Shown here: positions 1 through 20,699 of the stretch, one piece after another
Layout of the letters: every line of letters begins with the position of its first letter
How positions within the stretch are numbered: position 1 is the first letter of the stretch
Assembly (NCBI RefSeq): GCF_038025025.1
Contig: NW_027117348.1
Span: 62,001 to 126,000, forward strand
DNA: 64,000 bases
Reading direction: 5' to 3'
Origin: Phyllosticta citribraziliensis
Taxonomy: Eukaryota
Program-made: the position numbers and the translations under genes
Notes under the pieces: model-generated
The model's database searches: none
Seen by the model: the letters and a program-made list of their open reading frames with translations, nothing else
What the model was told of the DNA's origin: nothing

Positions 1-526
1 CCGCCCCTCCCCCGACTTGATACTGACTGGCATCAGCAGCGCCGAAACACTCCCCAGATTCTTTCGCCATGTCCTCCCCTGGGCCGAACTGATTGGACAC
101 AGCGCAGCCTTGCCGGCCCTAACCTTCACCAAGCCCCGCATTGCGTTCTCAATGTGAAGATTGCTCAGTGAAAAGCGCCACGAAGGCACGCCATGACAAC
201 TCCGAATCGCTGAAAGGCCAACGCGGAAGGCTTCGGGACGATAGACGCGTATGCGAGACTTTGAACGCGTTTCCCCTGGCAAAGCTGCGGCCACGTACTG
301 CGTTGCAGCCGTTTTCTCGACAGCGAAGTTGCTGAATGTGGTGATCTGCTTTCAATCAACTTCGACCGCCAGGAACCGAGAACATGGGCAAAGAACAGCA
401 TTTTTGGTCGCGACAAAACGAAGCCTTCGCGTGAAAGATGCTACAAAAGGCTGTCGTGTCGATACCTGAGGTACTCAAGACACTTGGATCCTCTTGGTCA
501 TATTGAGACTCCCAGCAGCAACGAGC

Positions 527-611
527 AACAAAGAAGCCATGAACAAACGGTCGTTTGTCTCGGCTTTCCCACCAGCATCAGCACAAACCTCGCGCCAGCG
601 GAACAAAGAAG
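527..611 (+). promoter_or_regulatory. Two AACAAAGAAG HMG-box (TR-box-like) sites upstream of the pheromone ORF
   Basis: Identical 10-mer at 527-536 and 602-611; AACAAAGAA is the reverse complement of the S. pombe Ste11 TR-box TTCTTTGTT, and MAT HMG proteins bind (A/T)CAAAG cores. Confidence 0.55.
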
Positions 612-727
612 ACGACATCTCAAAACGCACCCCAATAGCCAGAAGTCTCCTTTCACAATCTACTCGCCCGCCGGGAAATCATTTCTCGGCATTATTGACA
701 CCTGCAGACCCTCAGCGTTGCTCACGC

Positions 728-733
728 TATAAA
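728..733 (+). promoter_or_regulatory. TATA box of the pheromone precursor gene
   Basis: TATAAA 120 bp upstream of the ATG, followed by a CA-rich leader and the context TTCAAAATG. Confidence 0.6.
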
Positions 734-847
734 GCCCACCGCGTCGTCGACAGCATACGCCTTTTCCTTTCCACCAGCACACGCACGCGCACACTCTCAC
801 TATCCAAACCAACACCCACACTCGCTTCCAGCAACCAACAATTCAAA

Positions 848-907
848 ATGGGCCGCAAGTGGAACCCCATGAAGAACGACAACACCAAGTACTGCACCGT
901 CATGTAA
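848..907 (+). CDS. a-factor-like (CAAX) lipopeptide pheromone precursor, 19 aa MGRKWNPMKNDNTKYCTVM
   Basis: Tiny ORF ending Y-C-T-V-M-stop (CAAX), strong C-ending codon bias, CAAAATG context, TATA and HMG sites upstream; same architecture as ascomycete mfa-1/ppg2-type precursors. Confidence 0.85.
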   Translation: MGRKWNPMKNDNTKYCTVM

Positions 908-1299
908 AGCCGCCCTCGCGGGACGCACACGACGCACGCGGCGACTCCGACGCGGCCTAGCCATCGAATGCACACGACGGGGCCTAGGATGCGGACAAGT
1001 TCCGAGACGCAGGGACGGGCAGGAGGGGTGTCGTCCTGCGTTTTGAGGTCGCCTGCTTGGGAGATGAAGATTCGATGATTCGATAGGGGGAAGATGGGAA
1101 GGGGGCGCTGTGGGATAGGAGAGAAAATCAGAAAATGGAGCGGTGCGGCAGGTTGCTCAATCTGTTGGGCGGCCGTCGCACTTTCAAAACCCAACTGCTT
1201 TTGTGCCTTGTGCTGAGTGCTTCGCGAATGGACGGCGGCTTCAGGGCTGCTGTGGAGGATGCTGGGAATGGAGCGTACACGACTCCCTTTCCAAGACTC

Positions 1300-2900
1300 T
1301 TTAGCACTGGTGAAGACCACAGATGGTGGCTCCACAGTCACGGGCACAAAAAGTCGACTGCTGATGAGAATAGGTTGAGCACACTGGCCGATGCTACCGT
1401 ACCACGCCAAAGCCGCACTGCGCCAGCACCTGAAGCAAGACCGAGCCCTTTTGAACTCCAGGAGAAGAAAGAGCTGATAAGAATAGGTAAGGGGACAGAC
1501 CAAGCGCTCGTTATGCCGTTATCCCCTGCGGTGCTGTGCAGCTGAGGCAGTTTGCGGCGCATATCGCACACGGCGTTCCGTTGGAGCTACTCGGGCACAA
1601 CGAGGCGCATGAACAGATGAGACTTTGCCTGGAACTCGATGTCGAGGGGGTCTCAGGCATTGGTGTCTGACGGGGAAGTTTGTTGCAGCCGTGGGTTGGA
1701 CTAGAAATGCCACATATGGCCTCCTCAGAGCAACTTGAACTCGACGGGGTGCTCAAACTTGATGAGGCGCTTCGAAGCACGGCAGCCTGCGGAAGACTCA
1801 TCGTTGAGCGCGACGCGTGTAGTGACGTCTGGCTGGGGAGTCTGCTTAAGCTTTGCATTTGATGACCTGTAGAGTCGAGTGAACATGTCGATGATGAGCC
1901 GCTCGTCAAGAGCTCGTCCTCCAAGGGGTCTTGTAGATCGAGCAGTACGCGAGCCAACAATTTGAGCCTGGAAAAGGTACTTGGACGCTCCTCCCTTGGT
2001 ACCAAAACCTTTTCGAAAGCTTTTTGCCATGTTTCGTCCCTGACGTGTCCAAAGAAGTGCAGATCGTCCAGAAGCAACGGCAGATCTGGGGACATTCGAT
2101 AGTTCTTCAACCGTGAGATACAGAAGTAGAGTGAAAAGAGGACAAGGAGGGTGGCGGCCGCTGGGACAAAGAGCCATATTGAAACGAAGGCCGGCTTCGG
2201 CTTCAGGATCCTTTCCACTGGATCGCGTGACATGTTCGGTTTCTTGGGTCCAATTTGCGGCTATCTCTGGGGAGGGAAAACGATGGAGTTTTAGGGCTCC
2301 TGTTGATCGGGGTCCGGCGCCGTAGAACGAATGACAGATAGCTTGTCTCGACTTCTCGTGAATAGGAACTGGTCAACTCTGCTCGCTTGGTCGTAGACTT
2401 GGACGAGTAAGACATGGAGCGTTGAGTTGAAGAGTCGGTGCAGCGTGCGGTTGGGGGAAGGCGCCATGCGGAAGTTGAGAGGAAGCTGCCATCGGATGTT
2501 GGTGATGCATCTGGATTGGAGGTCTGAAGACAACGGCATTGGAGAAGATTCTTTGAAAGATCCAGAAACAAACCAAGGGAATGTCCCGGAGCTGTGCGTC
2601 GTGCCGGTCCTGCTACTGGGGCGCTCAGAAGACATCTGCGCAGGGACGCCGTCATGCTGCGACGCACCACAGCCTGCCAACTCGTTGTTCGCTCAATGTG
2701 TTCGAAGAATGTGCGGCCTCTGTTGCTTCGAAGCAGTGTCCCTTGTCTTGTTCCCCAACAATGGCCTTGTTCTGCCTGGAAAAACGCTTCGTTTCCACCG
2801 TCTTCGTGCCCGCGGAAAACAAAGAGCATCCTTATATGTGTTCGAGGGGCAACCAATCTTTCACACGGGTCGACTTTGTCTCGAGACAATGCATTGCTCC
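1300..2900 (-). pseudogene. Degenerate large gene, possibly DUF6604-family-like; boundaries approximate
   Basis: Protein-like segments in different frames (PDLPLL..RDETWQKAFEKVL..LLARVLLDLQDPL; CPLTYSYQLF..AWYGSIGQCAQ) recall C-terminal motifs of DUF6604 proteins; no continuous ORF. Confidence 0.25.
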
Positions 2901-4788
2901 CATTGTGCTCGGACGTCCGTTGTTCGACTGGATCCCAACAAGGAGACGCGATTCAGGGTAGCGGAATGGCGCGGCTAGAAAAACACCTGGATCTATCCGT
3001 GCAGGCCACCAACGTCTTCCATCAGCAGAGGCGAAGTTCTTTCCGTTGCAAGTCCGACTTACGAGAAGAGAACGACCCAAGTCGATGGATCATTGTCCGG
3101 CCGGCAGCGGAATGAAATGCGAGCATCGCAGTGAAGGGATCGAGGCGGCCGAGAGGAGACTCGGGTGCTTCGAATGGGACACCGCAGCTTCATGGCCTGG
3201 ATCCAGCTCCTGCAAACTGCATCAACAGCTGGGGTCGGCAAATTCATCCTTTTGATGTACTAAGCAGAGCCATGCCAACTCAGAGCAGTTGAATTCCCTG
3301 GCCGACGATTTTCTCCACCTTAGCACCGGGCAATGAAAGAACTTCCAGCAGTTGTTGACTATGATTGTGTGGGATCTGGAGCTGGAGGAGATGCGTCAAG
3401 ACTTGCTTTCAGCGTAGTGACGATGGTGGGGAGCGGCGGCTTCGGATCTTCGGATGCTTTGGCCTCATTCCCATGACTGAGGTCCTGAATCTCGTATCCA
3501 TGTCAGCTGGCCCAGAAAAACGCCGCTGATTCGAAACAAAGGGAAGCGCTTTTCCACTTCGACTACGGATGACACGTCGCCACCCCGAGGGCAGCAGGCT
3601 GACCCCATATCAGAATACCATGAACTCGTCGTGGGGGATGGGGCAGGGAAAGGAACAGCTCAAGACTTGCCCCAGTCGCAACGACAGAAAGCGAACCACC
3701 GCGTCTTCGTTTCTCAGTCTTGAATCCAGCGCGAGGCGCGCTGTCCAGCAACCTGGTATTCCTCATTCCGAACTCGATATTTGTGCTGCTGCCGGGGCTT
3801 GGGTCGAGCCGAGCATCTTCCAAAGGTGAGGCACGTCGCTGAAGACAACAAGGCAAGATGTTCGGAAGCCTGTCTGTTCGACATCCGCGTTGTTCGGTAG
3901 CTTCATCCGCGAGGGTGAAATGCTTCGTGGTATTCCAAGTCGTCGGACCAATCTTGCTTGAAGATGTTGCGCCTCTGATTCCGCAACCCGGTGCCATCTT
4001 TGTCGTGTCATTGTGAAAGATTGGAGGGTTGCTCGAGTGAAGGCGGACGTGCGGAAAAGAGTTCGATCCGAAAGCGGCCGCGACGGGGACTTATTGGGAG
4101 GGATTGGCGGGCGTGGTCTCGCTTAGACGATTTTTCTTCTGGAAATCACGTCAGCCGTATCCAACGAATCATAGAGGCACTGAAGAGCCACCAGGGATGT
4201 TCTCTTTGCATCGACTTTGGGGCGTGTGGTCGCGGAGGAAGCTCGCGCATCGAGGAAGAGCAGCAATTGCGGCAGCCGAGGCGTGGGGCTCCGGAGATAA
4301 CAGGTTGACGTCGATCTTAAAGGCAGAAGAACTGGAGCTGTTGTGGAGAGTTTGGTTGAGGGAGTAGTTGGTTGCGCGGGCAGCTCTCGATGATCGCGTG
4401 GTCATGGCAACGCGACGGGTACACGGCCAGGTCACAAGACTCCCCAAAGGCCCCTTTTTACCAGGTCACATCTAACAACGTAGCAGCGACAAGATCGGGA
4501 CTCTTTGCAGCTGGGCAAAGGAATTGGGCCGCTGCAGCGGAAAAATGACACTGCCATCATCATGGTAGTTTGGTCACGTCACTGGCGAACTCAATAGTGT
4601 ATGCAGTTAAGGGGGACACAGAATTTGGGAAACAGTATCGATTGTATCATGGCTACAAAGTCCGGAATCCATCAGACAAAAACAATTTCCTCGACGCCTT
4701 GTTCAACCCGGAGCTACAACGTCCAGTCAAGCAATACTTGGAACAAAAACGGAGCAACGAGGCAAGGCATTCCTCCAGAACTCAAGAC

Positions 4789-5334
4789 TCAAGCAGTCTT
4801 CTGACGCTTCGACGGAGACTCCTCCTCCACATCGTCAGCCTCACGCTTCTTCCCAGCCAACTGCTCGTCAGCATCGAACTCTCGAACCTCGTCCTCCTCG
4901 TTGAAACGAAGGGAGTTAGCAGCACGGCCCTCGCGCTTGGCTCTCCATCCCGGGCTCATCTTGTAGTCGAGGGCAGTCTCTTCCTCCTCGTCAGTCCAGG
5001 CGTCCTCCAGCGTCATCTGATTCAACAGACTCACCTTTGCCGACTGCCACTCCTCACGGGCCGTGCGGACGTCGTCGTAATCGACGTCGTCGCCGTCGTC
5101 ATGCTCGGTCTTCAACTCCTGCCAGCGGAAGAAGTTGTCGCGCTCCCACTCGTGGCAGCAAAGCGCGCACATGAGGGGCCGCGGGCGAGTGTCGTTGGCG
5201 ATCTCGGCGGCGATTTTTTTGGACACCCCGATTTCGTGCTCGCACCACGCCTCGATCAAGGCGTGGGTGCCAGTCTCGGGGTCGACCAGCTCGTCGAAGT
5301 TGGGAAGGTCGGCAATGGTGTGGATAAAGGCCAT
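4789..5334 (-). CDS. Hypothetical protein with CxH-x22-CxxC motif, acidic C-half and terminal basic NLS-like PSKRQK
   Basis: 181-aa ORF from MAFIHT (CAAAATG context), strong codon bias, TATAAG on the minus strand near 5485. Confidence 0.75.
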   Translation of the reverse strand: MAFIHTIADLPNFDELVDPETGTHALIEAWCEHEIGVSKKIAAEIANDTRPRPLMCALCCHEWERDNFFRWQELKTEHDDGDDVDYDDVRTAREEWQSAKVSLLNQMTLEDAWTDEEEETALDYKMSPGWRAKREGRAANSLRFNEEDEVREFDADEQLAGKKREADDVEEESPSKRQKTA

Positions 5335-17879: not shown

Positions 17880-20699
17880 CTACAAATACTTCAACACAAA
17901 CGGATCCGTCGACACCGTCTCCTTGAAATCCTCCGTGACGTTCGGATTGCCATACAGCCTCGCCGCCTGCATCTGAAAATAATACCTGCCCTCCGGCGCC
18001 CACGTATCGTTCTCCAGCTGGCCCGTGAAATTGACAAAGAACGTGATGAGGCGACTAAACGACGCGTCCAGCTGTGCCGGCAACAGCGTCGTGACGTTCT
18101 TGCGCGTCTCGGCGTCGAACAGGTCGACCTGGGCGTACTTGGTGTACATGGAAAAGCGCATCTGGATCCACGGGACGCTGAGGTTGACCTGCGCCTCATC
18201 CGAGCTGTCCCGCGGCAGGCGGAACTCGTAGTCGGGCGGCAGACGCGGTAGGTAGCCGCGCTCGCGGGTCGTGTTGAAGATGGTCGTGTTGGTCGCCGAG
18301 ACGACGTAGATGCCGGGCGTGTTCACGTCGAGGACGGGCAGGTCGCGCAGGCGGCAGCCCACTTGGCCGTAGGGCAGCGTCAGGTTGTCGAAGGTGCCGT
18401 TGATGGCGATGTAGCCGCTCAGGAGGGGGCAGCGGGACTCGAAGGCCGCGAATTTGCTGATGTCTGTGTTGACGCGGATCTCTTTGCTCTCCTTAGGCTG
18501 CAGCGTGAAGGATGTCGGGTTGATGAAGACGTCGGCGTTTTCGGGAACGATGCTGTCGACGAAGTCTTGGAGCGCGAAGCCGGCGGTCAGGGGTGTCTGT
18601 TGCGGAGTTGCAAGCGGTCCTTCAAAGTAGCCTTGAAATGGTATAGGATTTGGATCTCCGTTTCCGCGGAACGAGAGTATCGTGGCTGCGCCGATGTGGG
18701 AGAGGCGGTAGTCTGATGGCTCGGTGCCGTTGTTCGTGATTGTAAATTTCAGCGTTCCGGGATTGAACTCCGTGTCGTTGAATGACAAGCCATAGCTGTC
18801 TAGAATGGTCGTCGTGTATACTGCGTGGTGAGCGTCTACGAGACCACCTCCTTGTTGCCAAACTGGCGCTAAGAAGTCGAACGGAGTTCTGCTGCCGTCG
18901 TTGAAGGGCATGGGCTTGGCTGTCGTCACGAGCCGGGAGGTCGTCTGGTAAAAGTTGAGTCCTGGCCGGGCCTCTCTGAGAAGCGCAACTACGCCGGCAA
19001 GGTAGGGCGTGGACATGGATGTCCCGCTGAGAAGTTGTAGGCCACCGTTCTTTCGTGCATAGGTAGAGAGAATATTTCGGCCTGGGGCAGACACCGTCTG
19101 CTTCAGGTCCGCAATGGCAGGGGGGCCTATTCCGCTGAAGTTTGCCATGCGACCCCCTGTGCCAGCAGGATTCAGGCTGTTGTAAATAATGGGGAACACC
19201 GTCGTGTTCATGGTAACCTGCACGCCCCCTTCTCGGACGAAGCCATCAATGAGGTCTCTCCCAGAGTCAGCGGTCGTAAAGCCTGCCCCTTCAATGCCGT
19301 CGGCAACTTCTTCGAAACGTGGAATCTCAATGTCTCCACGCAAGTCATTGTAGAAGATGACAAATCGGGCGCCAATGGCTGCAAGGTTGCCCAGTTGGTT
19401 GATAAATCGACAACCCCCACGTCTCACGAGCACCAGCCGATTCTTTAGGTCTGGCGTGGGAGTTGTGATTGGTGCACAGGCTTCGTCTTCGCGGCTGGTG
19501 TCGAGGGACAAGGGGTACAGGTCCAGCAGAGGAGGGTAGACGCTCTTTGCCGAGTTTCTCCAGTAGAATTGATTCGGAGTCGAGTCGCTTCCCGTCGTGT
19601 AAGCGGCTTCGTACACGGGAATCCTGTACCGCAAGATCTCAACTGCGCCAATGGCCGTGTTGTCTGTTCCGGAGGCTGATGCTTCGGACGTGAAGCTTCC
19701 GTTTGCACCACTGTTTCCCGCTGCGGCTGCTACAAATATCTTGCCTTCTTTGTGGATCTCTCGAGAAATTTCAGAAATGGGGTCTGTATTTGTTAGCATG
19801 TCAACACCAACGCAAGGGTCGACGTACCGTCAGTAAAGGGGCCTCCGCCTCCGAGTGAAAGATTGATGATATCGACGCTCTGGTTGTATGCCATCAGAAT
19901 CCCGCGTATCAGAGCGCTTGTCCTCGTGAGCTCGTTGCAGTCAAAGACGCGATAAATCTCCAGCTTGGCACCAGGAGCGACGCCAGTGAAGTTGATTGCC
20001 GAGTTCAGCGGATTCTCTGCGGCCACGATTCCCGCCACGTGGGTCCCATGCTCGGCGCAGTCAGAATAGGGGTCCGAATCGTTCTTCGGCATAGCCGGTG
20101 GGTAGATGTTGTCGCCAACAAAGTCGAAGCCCCCCTTGACTTTGAATCCTTCGCCAATCCCGCCTCCGAGATAGGGGTTGAAATAGTCGCATCCCGTGTC
20201 GATAATGGCGACGACCTGACCCTTTCCCGTGAAACCCTCTGCTTTTAGCTTGTCAACCCCCGTCATGCCGTCCACGTCAGGGACGACATCTTCAAGCTCG
20301 TCATTGATGTTCTTGCGCTCCACAATGTCCGCGAGCCGGTATTCTCTTTCTGGCCACACCTTTTCGACCATTCCAATAGACTCAATCATGCCCTTGTAGC
20401 CCAGATTCTTCTTGAAGCCCTTGGTGCTTTTGATCGAAACGGCCACCCCGTTGAAAACATTGCTCTTGAGATCTACCATCAAAGACGCCTCCCCCGGCAT
20501 ATCCATTCTTCTCAGCTGCGAGTTGATTTCTTCGACTGCCTGTCCCGCATTCTGATTCACAGATGAGCTCTTGCATTGGAGAATTGTTGGCTGTTCTGTA
20601 TACCTGGTCTTTCTTGAGTTTGACGATAAACTGGTCCGGCAGAATTTGCCCGAACGCAAAGCTCAAGAAGAGCAGTATTATTAGCGGAAACGCCGGCAT
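17880..20699 (-). CDS. Secreted S8 subtilisin-like serine protease with PA domain and C-terminal Fn3-like region; introns 20552-20603 and 19784-19827
   Basis: Signal peptide MPAFPLIILLFLSFAFG; catalytic motifs IIDTG, HGTHVAG, AAAGNSG, GTSMSTP; PA motif LVRRGGC; both introns restore the frame. Confidence 0.92.

What the first reader, a model, noticed from the sequence alone, without database searches (positions are those of the whole stretch)
848..907. Unannotated 19-aa CAAX pheromone precursor gene
Seen: MGRKWNPMKNDNTKYCTVM-stop with TATAAA at 728, a CA-rich leader and CAAAATG context; it appears only as the tail of a longer ORF-track call. Established: ascomycete a-factor-like pheromones are tiny, end in a farnesylated CAAX (often YCxxM), diverge rapidly and are routinely missed by annotation. 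Inference: this is the species' lipopeptide mating pheromone.
Basis: partly seen in the sequence, partly recalled or inferred. Interest (0 to 1): 0.75.

Follow-up and report, generated by a model that had tools for sequence, protein, structure and literature searches.

The report
Duplicated third pheromone-like lipopeptide gene
A Phyllosticta fungus carries two copies of a tiny gene for a 19-residue peptide ending in a lipid-attachment signal, apart from its two expected mating-pheromone genes, and the promoters suggest it is likely switched on in the mating type not expected to make a lipid-tailed pheromone.

Summary
The 19-aa ORF is real. A second copy on contig C12 encodes the same peptide (59 of 60 bases identical, one silent change) while the flanks have diverged except TATA, start context and promoter boxes. 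The genome is a MAT1-1 Phyllosticta, most likely P. citribraziliensis, with Ram1, Rce1, Ste24, Ste14, Ste6 and Ste3. It is probably not 'the' a-type pheromone: a triple-CAAX precursor sits at the cyanase locus where Sordariomycetes keep theirs (the scan noted that gene before, e1-7588003), and an alpha-factor gene is present too. Promoters split in two groups. The MAT1-1-1-type core TATTGA occurs 2 and 3 times before the two copies and 3 times each before STE3 and ppg1, but not before STE2, the triple-CAAX gene or STE6 (2 or more in 1 of 188 background regions). Best reading: a third, MAT1-1-activated farnesylated peptide, likely acting on the cell's own Ste3. Expression, prenylation, export and conservation in relatives are untested, and the window's copy has only one site fitting the published consensus. 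No homologue was found elsewhere.

The parts
848..907 (+). 19-aa CAAX small ORF (ends CTVM-stop); copy 1 of 2. Copy 2 is at G000:C12:427270-427211(-)
840..850 (+). Start context (T)CAAAATG, shared with the C12 copy
726..733 (+). GCTATAAA TATA box, 120 nt before the ATG (112 nt in the C12 copy)
500..507 (+). MAT1-1-1-type box, ATATTGAG (1 mismatch to the published motif); the C12 copy has a TATTGAG at the same distance (-347)
   Evidence: motif from PMC8022922
631..640 (-). MAT1-1-1-like box GGCTATTGGG (lacks the ATTGA core); aligns with an exact CTATTGAG in the C12 promoter
692..699 (+). TTATTGAC, the one site in this promoter that fits the EMSA consensus (T/C)(T/C)ATTGA(G/T/C)
527..535 (+). 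AACAAAGAA, Ste11/PaHMG5-type HMG box, site 1
   Evidence: motif from PMC3730723
602..610 (+). AACAAAGAA, Ste11/PaHMG5-type HMG box, site 2
612..619 (+). ACGACATC block shared by both promoters; role unknown
994..1003 (+). GACAAGTTCC block shared by both 3' flanks; weak (the 3' alignment score was reached by 16 of 300 shuffles)

Best explanation
Two dispersed genes encode the same 19-aa CAAX peptide, which is predicted to be farnesylated, likely made in MAT1-1 cells under MAT1-1-1 alongside alpha-factor and Ste3, and likely acts as a self-signal on that cell's own lipopeptide receptor Ste3. Shown: ORF, duplication, codon bias, promoter boxes, processing genes, and separate alpha-type and a-type pheromone genes. 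Inferred from established CAAX biochemistry: Ram1 farnesylates Cys16, Rce1 or Ste24 removes TVM, Ste14 methylates. Inferred from promoter motifs only: MAT1-1-specific transcription (about 0.55-0.6). Weakest step: the target. Ste3 is the only known lipopeptide receptor here and shares the promoter signature, so an autocrine agonist or antagonist that tunes the response to the partner's C16-encoded pheromone is my choice; export would rely on basal Ste6 or on the cytoplasm shared after fusion.
For: Duplication with ORF-limited identity and a homologous promoter. TATTGA in 600 bp upstream: C11 copy 2, C12 copy 3, STE3 3, ppg1 3; STE2, C16 precursor, STE6, RAM1, STE14 0; background 2 or more in 1 of 188 and 3 or more in 0 of 188. 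The motif is the bound core of A. fumigatus MAT1-1-1 at ppgA and preA (PMC8022922). Semi-blind check: of 4 YTATTGAG pairs picked and fetched, the tightest proved to lie upstream of ppg1. Converse signature RACAAT: STE2 4, C16 precursor 5, STE3 0, ppg1 1, the two copies 1 and 2, background mean 0.66. Two RACAAAGAA boxes in the C11 promoter (any such box in 2 of 188 background regions; also one each before STE3 and MAT1-1-1). Ram1, Ste14 (86), Ste24 (114), Rce1 (115), Ste6 (98), Ste3 (18) present. The peptide ends Y-C-T-V-M, like the YCVVM and CTVM ends of Sordariomycete a-factors.
Against: By the strict published motif the window's copy is weak: YTATTGAK 0 sites, EMSA consensus 1 site (32 of 188 background regions have at least one); only the C12 copy has 2. 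Six motif variants were tried and seven; TATTGA is the variant that separates best. The background is upstream of long ORFs, not verified promoters. RACAAT was read off STE2 and C16 after seeing them and is a recalled HMG consensus, not a tested MAT1-2-1 site. STE6, RAM1 and STE14 promoters have no TATTGA, so export from MAT1-1 cells is unexplained. KEX2 has no box near its start. The peptide is far more hydrophilic (GRAVY -2.05 for residues 2-16) than the C16 unit (+0.41), so a shared receptor is not obvious. The textbook rule is that MAT1-1 cells make only alpha-factor (PMC6562746). No homologue outside this genome.
Confidence: 0.4

Rival explanations
1. The pair are extra a-type pheromone genes, expressed in MAT1-2 cells and read by Ste3 on the partner, beside the C16 precursor. 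The TATTGA boxes would be incidental or repressive.
For: Single-unit Y-C-a-a-M form like Neurospora mfa-1. Two identical dispersed copies recall Cryphonectria Mf2/1 and Mf2/2, and multi-copy a-factors in Huntiella (PMC10182648). It passes the Srikant filters: CAAX, Asn 5-20 residues before the Cys, multicopy. Ste11-type boxes in C11.
Against: The canonical locus is already filled. The copies lack the RACAAT cluster of STE2 and C16, and those a-side genes carry no TATTGA. The peptide sequence is unlike the C16 units.
Confidence: 0.22
2. MAT1-1-activated but not secreted: a membrane-anchored intracellular micropeptide (basic stretch plus farnesyl) that acts inside the cell, for example as a competing substrate for Ram1, Ste14 or Ste6 that damps a-type pheromone output after fusion.
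For: Same promoter evidence. Net charge about +2.5 and strongly hydrophilic. STE6 has no TATTGA box.
Against: The whole 19-mer is identical in both copies, more than a decoy CAAX would need, though codon bias or gene conversion could explain that.
Confidence: 0.17
3. A second MAT1-1-to-MAT1-2 pheromone: a lipidated ligand for Ste2 or another GPCR on the partner, in parallel with alpha-factor.
For: Promoter grouping with ppg1. The N-terminal GRKW resembles GRIW and GFKW just before two ppg1 repeats, a four-residue likeness that was not tested.
Against: An intact-looking ppg1 with three FCxxPGQPC repeats already fills this role. I know of no lipidated Ste2 ligand (recalled).
Confidence: 0.1
4. 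A small farnesylated peptide unrelated to mating, or a non-functional duplicated ORF.
For: Genomes hold many short CAAX ORFs (100-700 per yeast genome after filters). This genome has other small CAAX genes, the Cys-rich family. No expression data.
Against: Identity confined to the ORF and start context, one silent change, 15 of 15 C/G-ending codons, conserved TATA, and two kinds of mating-type HMG boxes.
Confidence: 0.11

Closest known systems
Sordariomycete single-unit a-type pheromone precursors (N. crassa mfa-1, S. macrospora ppg2, F. graminearum ppg2, M. grisea MF1-1)
   Same: About 20 aa, no signal peptide, terminal Y-C-a-a-M or CTVM, Asn residues upstream of the Cys.
   Different: No S/T-rich N-terminus; not beside cyanate lyase; basic and hydrophilic; promoter has MAT1-1-1-type rather than STE2-like boxes.
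Cryphonectria parasitica Mf2/1 and Mf2/2
   Same: Two identical copies of a short a-type gene (PMC10182648).
   Different: Those are listed as the MAT1-2 pheromone; here a separate canonical precursor exists on C16.
h-type and multi-repeat precursors (T. reesei HPP1, Verticillium, Huntiella), matched in this genome by the C16 triple-CAAX gene
   Same: CAAX lipopeptide class in the same genome.
   Different: The finding is single-unit, on other contigs, with an unrelated sequence and the opposite promoter signature.
Leotiomycete 'putative a-factor' (B. cinerea BCIN_13g03330 family; Wilson et al. 2023, PMC10569646)
   Same: Small ORF ending CTVM or CVVM.
   Different: That family is 45-64 aa, S/T-rich and Cys-rich. 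Its two members in this genome are on C8. The finding is not a member.
A. fumigatus ppgB (Krappmann et al. 2025)
   Same: An a-factor-like peptide reported outside Sordariomycetes (seen only as a citation in PMC11787670).
   Different: The paper is not held; sequence, locus and regulation could not be compared.

Membership tests
Ascomycete a-type pheromone precursor | Short ORF, no signal peptide, terminal CAAX | tested here: met
   19 aa, CTVM-stop, hydrophilic throughout
Ascomycete a-type pheromone precursor | Asn cleavage site 5-20 residues before the Cys; multicopy (Srikant filter) | tested here: met
   Asn6-Pro7 leaves a 10-mer; two copies
Ascomycete a-type pheromone precursor | Processing, export and receptor genes in the genome | tested here: met
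   Ram1, Ste14, Ste24, Rce1, Ste6, Ste3; Axl1/Ste23 not searched
Ascomycete a-type pheromone precursor | Located near cyanate lyase (usual in Sordariomycetes, not universal) | tested here: not met
   Cyanase is on C16 with a different CAAX precursor; the copies are on C11 and C12
Ascomycete a-type pheromone precursor | Expressed in MAT1-2 under MAT1-2-1 | tested here: inconclusive
   Only promoter motifs could be read; they point to MAT1-1
Ascomycete a-type pheromone precursor | Farnesylated, secreted, activates Ste3 | not testable with these tools
   needs experiment
Ascomycete a-type pheromone precursor | Conserved at a syntenic site in close relatives | not testable with these tools
   No eukaryote relatives are held for this genome
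MAT1-1-1 target genes (ppgA/preA type) | (T/C)(T/C)ATTGA(G/T/C) sites in the promoter | tested here: inconclusive
   C12 copy 2 sites (2 or more in 1 of 188 background regions); window copy 1 site (1 or more in 32 of 188); STE3 3, ppg1 2
MAT1-1-1 target genes (ppgA/preA type) | Binding by MAT1-1-1 and loss of expression in a mutant | not testable with these tools
   needs EMSA, ChIP or RNA-seq
Leotiomycete putative a-factor family (Wilson 2023) | 45-64 aa, S/T-rich N-terminus, Cys-rich core | tested here: not met
h-type / multi-repeat precursor | Repeated units with internal CAAX-like motifs | tested here: not met
   single unit
alpha-type precursor (ppg1) | Signal peptide, KR-flanked CxxxGQxC repeats | tested here: not met
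   Absent here; present at G000:C2:1078339(-)

The most novel reading that the evidence does not exclude
Phyllosticta has a three-signal mating system: besides alpha-factor (MAT1-1) and a multi-repeat a-type lipopeptide (MAT1-2), MAT1-1 cells make their own farnesylated peptide from two MAT1-1-1-controlled genes. This breaks the ascomycete rule that only MAT1-2 cells make lipopeptide signals.
Probability: 0.4. Interest if true: 0.85.

Novelty: new variant of a known kind. Interest (0 to 1): 0.63.

Why it matters
I found no report of an a-type pheromone gene in Dothideomycetes or of pheromone genes in Phyllosticta (paper searches; subscription papers such as Krappmann 2025 were not readable). 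This genome shows that 'small CAAX ORF' is not enough to name the a-factor: it holds three unrelated kinds (C16 triple repeat, two Cys-rich genes, this pair). Promoter boxes sort them in a testable way. If the pair is MAT1-1-specific, it is a lipopeptide signal from the cell type thought to make none, which bears on autocrine pheromone signalling and on recognition after cell fusion. One RNA-seq comparison of the two mating types would decide the main point.

Tried and rejected
122-aa frame from ATG 539: starts before the TATA box, not shared by C12, no Pfam hit, not in the protein collection. Third YCxxM hit on C13: only MYCTIM, downstream of a LIM-type gene, chance. All 61 hits of a C-[TAVIM]-[VILM]-M-stop/Trp pattern were read; no further paralogue, but the pattern misses other CAAX ends, such as the C16 CSVM. 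11 hits of an MG[RK]KW-type start pattern: only the two copies. The idea that the pair replaces alpha-factor was dropped when ppg1 was found; earlier W-anchored patterns missed it. The isocitrate-dehydrogenase synteny lead (recalled) was not followed up. Homologue searches: none in proteins of 30-66 aa; one hit among 1.84 billion representatives, a repeat artefact; one metagenome match in an unrelated AT-rich context without CAAX. These libraries start at about 30 aa, so the blanks are weak. Sequencing runs: no RNA holder listed. No Rfam match in 1-5000. A plasmid search and a motif-only paper search were uninformative. Of 50 loci around GGCTATTGRG sites or YTATTGAG pairs, 11 had two boxes; apart from ppg1 none showed a pheromone-like ORF; 14 of the 62 GGCTATTGRG sites were not fetched. 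MAT1-2-1: no HMG hit at the APN2/MAT locus among 8 HMG matches, so the isolate is read as MAT1-1.

Full report
Observation. The ORF, TATA box, leader and start context are as described. One CAAX-ended short ORF in 64 kb is not unusual (2 strict cases among 27 Cxxx-stop ends). What makes it real is a second copy on contig C12. The 60 coding bases differ at one synonymous site, all 15 degenerate codons end in C or G, and the flanks are near random except for the start context, GCTATAAA and a few promoter blocks; the 400-bp upstream alignment beats 300 of 300 shuffles, the downstream one does not stand out (16 of 300 reach it). The 122-aa frame that hides the gene starts upstream of the TATA box and is not shared. 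No third copy was found.

Organism. STE2 matches a P. citribraziliensis protein (98.1% over 371 aa, with the mismatches in the tail where my splice guess differs) against about 93% for P. citricarpa and P. citriasiana. MAT1-1-1 lies beside APN2 and no MAT1-2-1 was seen, so I read it as a MAT1-1 isolate of a heterothallic species. That P. citribraziliensis is an endophyte is recalled. Ram1, Ste14, Ste24, Rce1, a Ste6 orthologue (relatives are named a-pheromone efflux pump), Ste3 and Ste2 are present.

Other pheromone-like genes. An earlier scan note (e1-7568065) pointed to the PLD/cyanase site. Schmoll et al. 2010 (PMC3068285, passages) place the a-type gene near cyanate lyase in Neurospora, Magnaporthe, Fusarium, Chaetomium and Podospora. 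In this genome that site holds a 68-aa triple-CAAX precursor, also noted before as e1-7588003. An alpha-type precursor lies on C2. Two Cys-rich CAAX ORFs on C8 belong to the family of Wilson et al. 2023 (PMC10569646; passages, section 21, first part of section 27, S2 and S10 Files and part 1 of S3 Table read), who found no mating-type-dependent expression for it. So both expected pheromone slots are filled by other genes, and the finding is a third kind.

Promoters. The blocks shared by the two copies include the reverse complement of CTATTGAG, the MAT1-1-1 site of P. chrysogenum and A. fumigatus (PMC8022922; passages and section 18). YTATTGAG occurs 541 times in 31.35 Mb. In 600 bp upstream, the core TATTGA occurs 2 times (window copy), 3 (C12 copy), 3 (STE3) and 3 (ppg1), and 0 times before STE2, the C16 precursor, STE6, RAM1 and STE14; 1 of 188 background regions has two and none has three. 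RACAAT shows the opposite pattern: 4 before STE2, 5 before C16, 0 before STE3, 1 before ppg1, 1 and 2 before the copies, background mean 0.66. The window copy also has two RACAAAGAA boxes, the site bound by the Ste11 orthologue PaHMG5 in Podospora (PMC3730723, passages), against 2 of 188 background regions with one. As a partial blind test, the tightest of four YTATTGAG pairs I picked from the genome listing turned out to lie upstream of ppg1.

Limits of the promoter argument. Several motif variants were tried. With the EMSA consensus the window copy has one site, as 32 of 188 background regions do, and with YTATTGAK none; the case rests more on the C12 copy and on the aligned position of the boxes. 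The background regions are upstream of long ORFs, not mapped promoters. RACAAT was chosen after seeing STE2 and C16. STE6, RAM1, STE14 and KEX2 lack the box, so export from MAT1-1 cells is not explained. Nothing here measures expression.

Mechanism. From established CAAX chemistry, CTVM would be farnesylated, trimmed and methylated. An Asn-Pro site would leave a 10-mer by the rule of Srikant et al. (bioRxiv 10.1101/2021.09.28.462209, passages), or the 15-mer may stay whole. The product is basic and hydrophilic. The promoter signature places it with ppg1 and STE3. The rule reviewed in PMC6562746 (passages) is that MAT1-1 cells make alpha-factor only. I commit to a MAT1-1-made lipopeptide acting on the cell's own Ste3 (0.40), ahead of an extra MAT1-2 a-factor (0.22), an intracellular anchored peptide (0.17), a second signal to the partner (0.10) and a non-mating or non-functional ORF (0.11). 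MAT1-1-biased expression as such I put at about 0.55-0.6; the choice of receptor is the least supported step.

Comparison and novelty. It looks like a single-unit Sordariomycete a-factor and, in its two identical copies, like Cryphonectria Mf2/1 and Mf2/2 (PMC10182648, passages). It fails the usual locus feature and its regulation points the other way, so I do not file it as the a-factor. Paper searches (listings, plus passages of PMC11787670 and PMC13037118) gave no a-type pheromone for Dothideomycetes and no MAT1-1-specific CAAX peptide; the A. fumigatus ppgB paper was not readable, and bioRxiv supplements are closed. The scan has noted multi-CAAX Dothideomycete precursors in other genomes but nothing like this sequence. 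Protein and metagenome searches found no homologue, which is weak evidence for a 19-aa peptide. Verdict: real gene pair, new variant of a known kind, interest 0.63; 0.85 if MAT1-1-specific expression is shown.

Noticed in passing
G000:C16:311516-311722(+), L091:5517-5723: 68-aa precursor with three DMYGC-ending units and terminal CSVM, just after PLD and about 5.5 kb from cyanase; five RACAAT boxes upstream. Best candidate for the canonical a-type pheromone; already noted as e1-7588003.
   Followed up: partly
G000:C2:1078339(-), L212/L256: alpha-factor precursor ppg1 with a hydrophobic N-terminus, one apparent intron and three FCxxPGQPC repeats; three TATTGA sites just before its TATA box and two YTATTGAG sites about 620-670 nt upstream.
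   Followed up: yes
G000:C8:~420070(-) (L035) and C8:587555(+) (L069): Two Cys-rich CAAX small ORFs (45 and 48 aa) of the family Wilson et al. 2023 proposed as Leotiomycete a-factor. Their promoters have 1 and 0 TATTGA and no RACAAT, which does not support a mating-type role.
   Followed up: partly
G000:C6:1443300-1450800: MAT1-1-1 next to APN2; one RACAAAGAA box in its promoter; no HMG-box MAT gene in the 20 kb read.
   Followed up: partly
window 7500-44000: Cluster of fast-evolving F-box-like and RING-finger genes and a series of related hypothetical genes on the minus strand, near the start of contig C11. The window's copy sits in this variable region; the C12 copy sits among core genes (PIG-P, SNF2 helicase, RRM protein, Na/H exchanger), so C12 may be the older site (inference).
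   Followed up: no
G000:C17:~224030-224250(+), L211 and C6:1140417, L196: Paired TATTGA boxes upstream of a 418-aa ORF on C17 and near an ORF end on C6; possible further MAT1-1-1 targets.
   Followed up: no
window 17880-20662(-): Subtilase (S8) gene with PA and Fn3-like domains.
   Followed up: no
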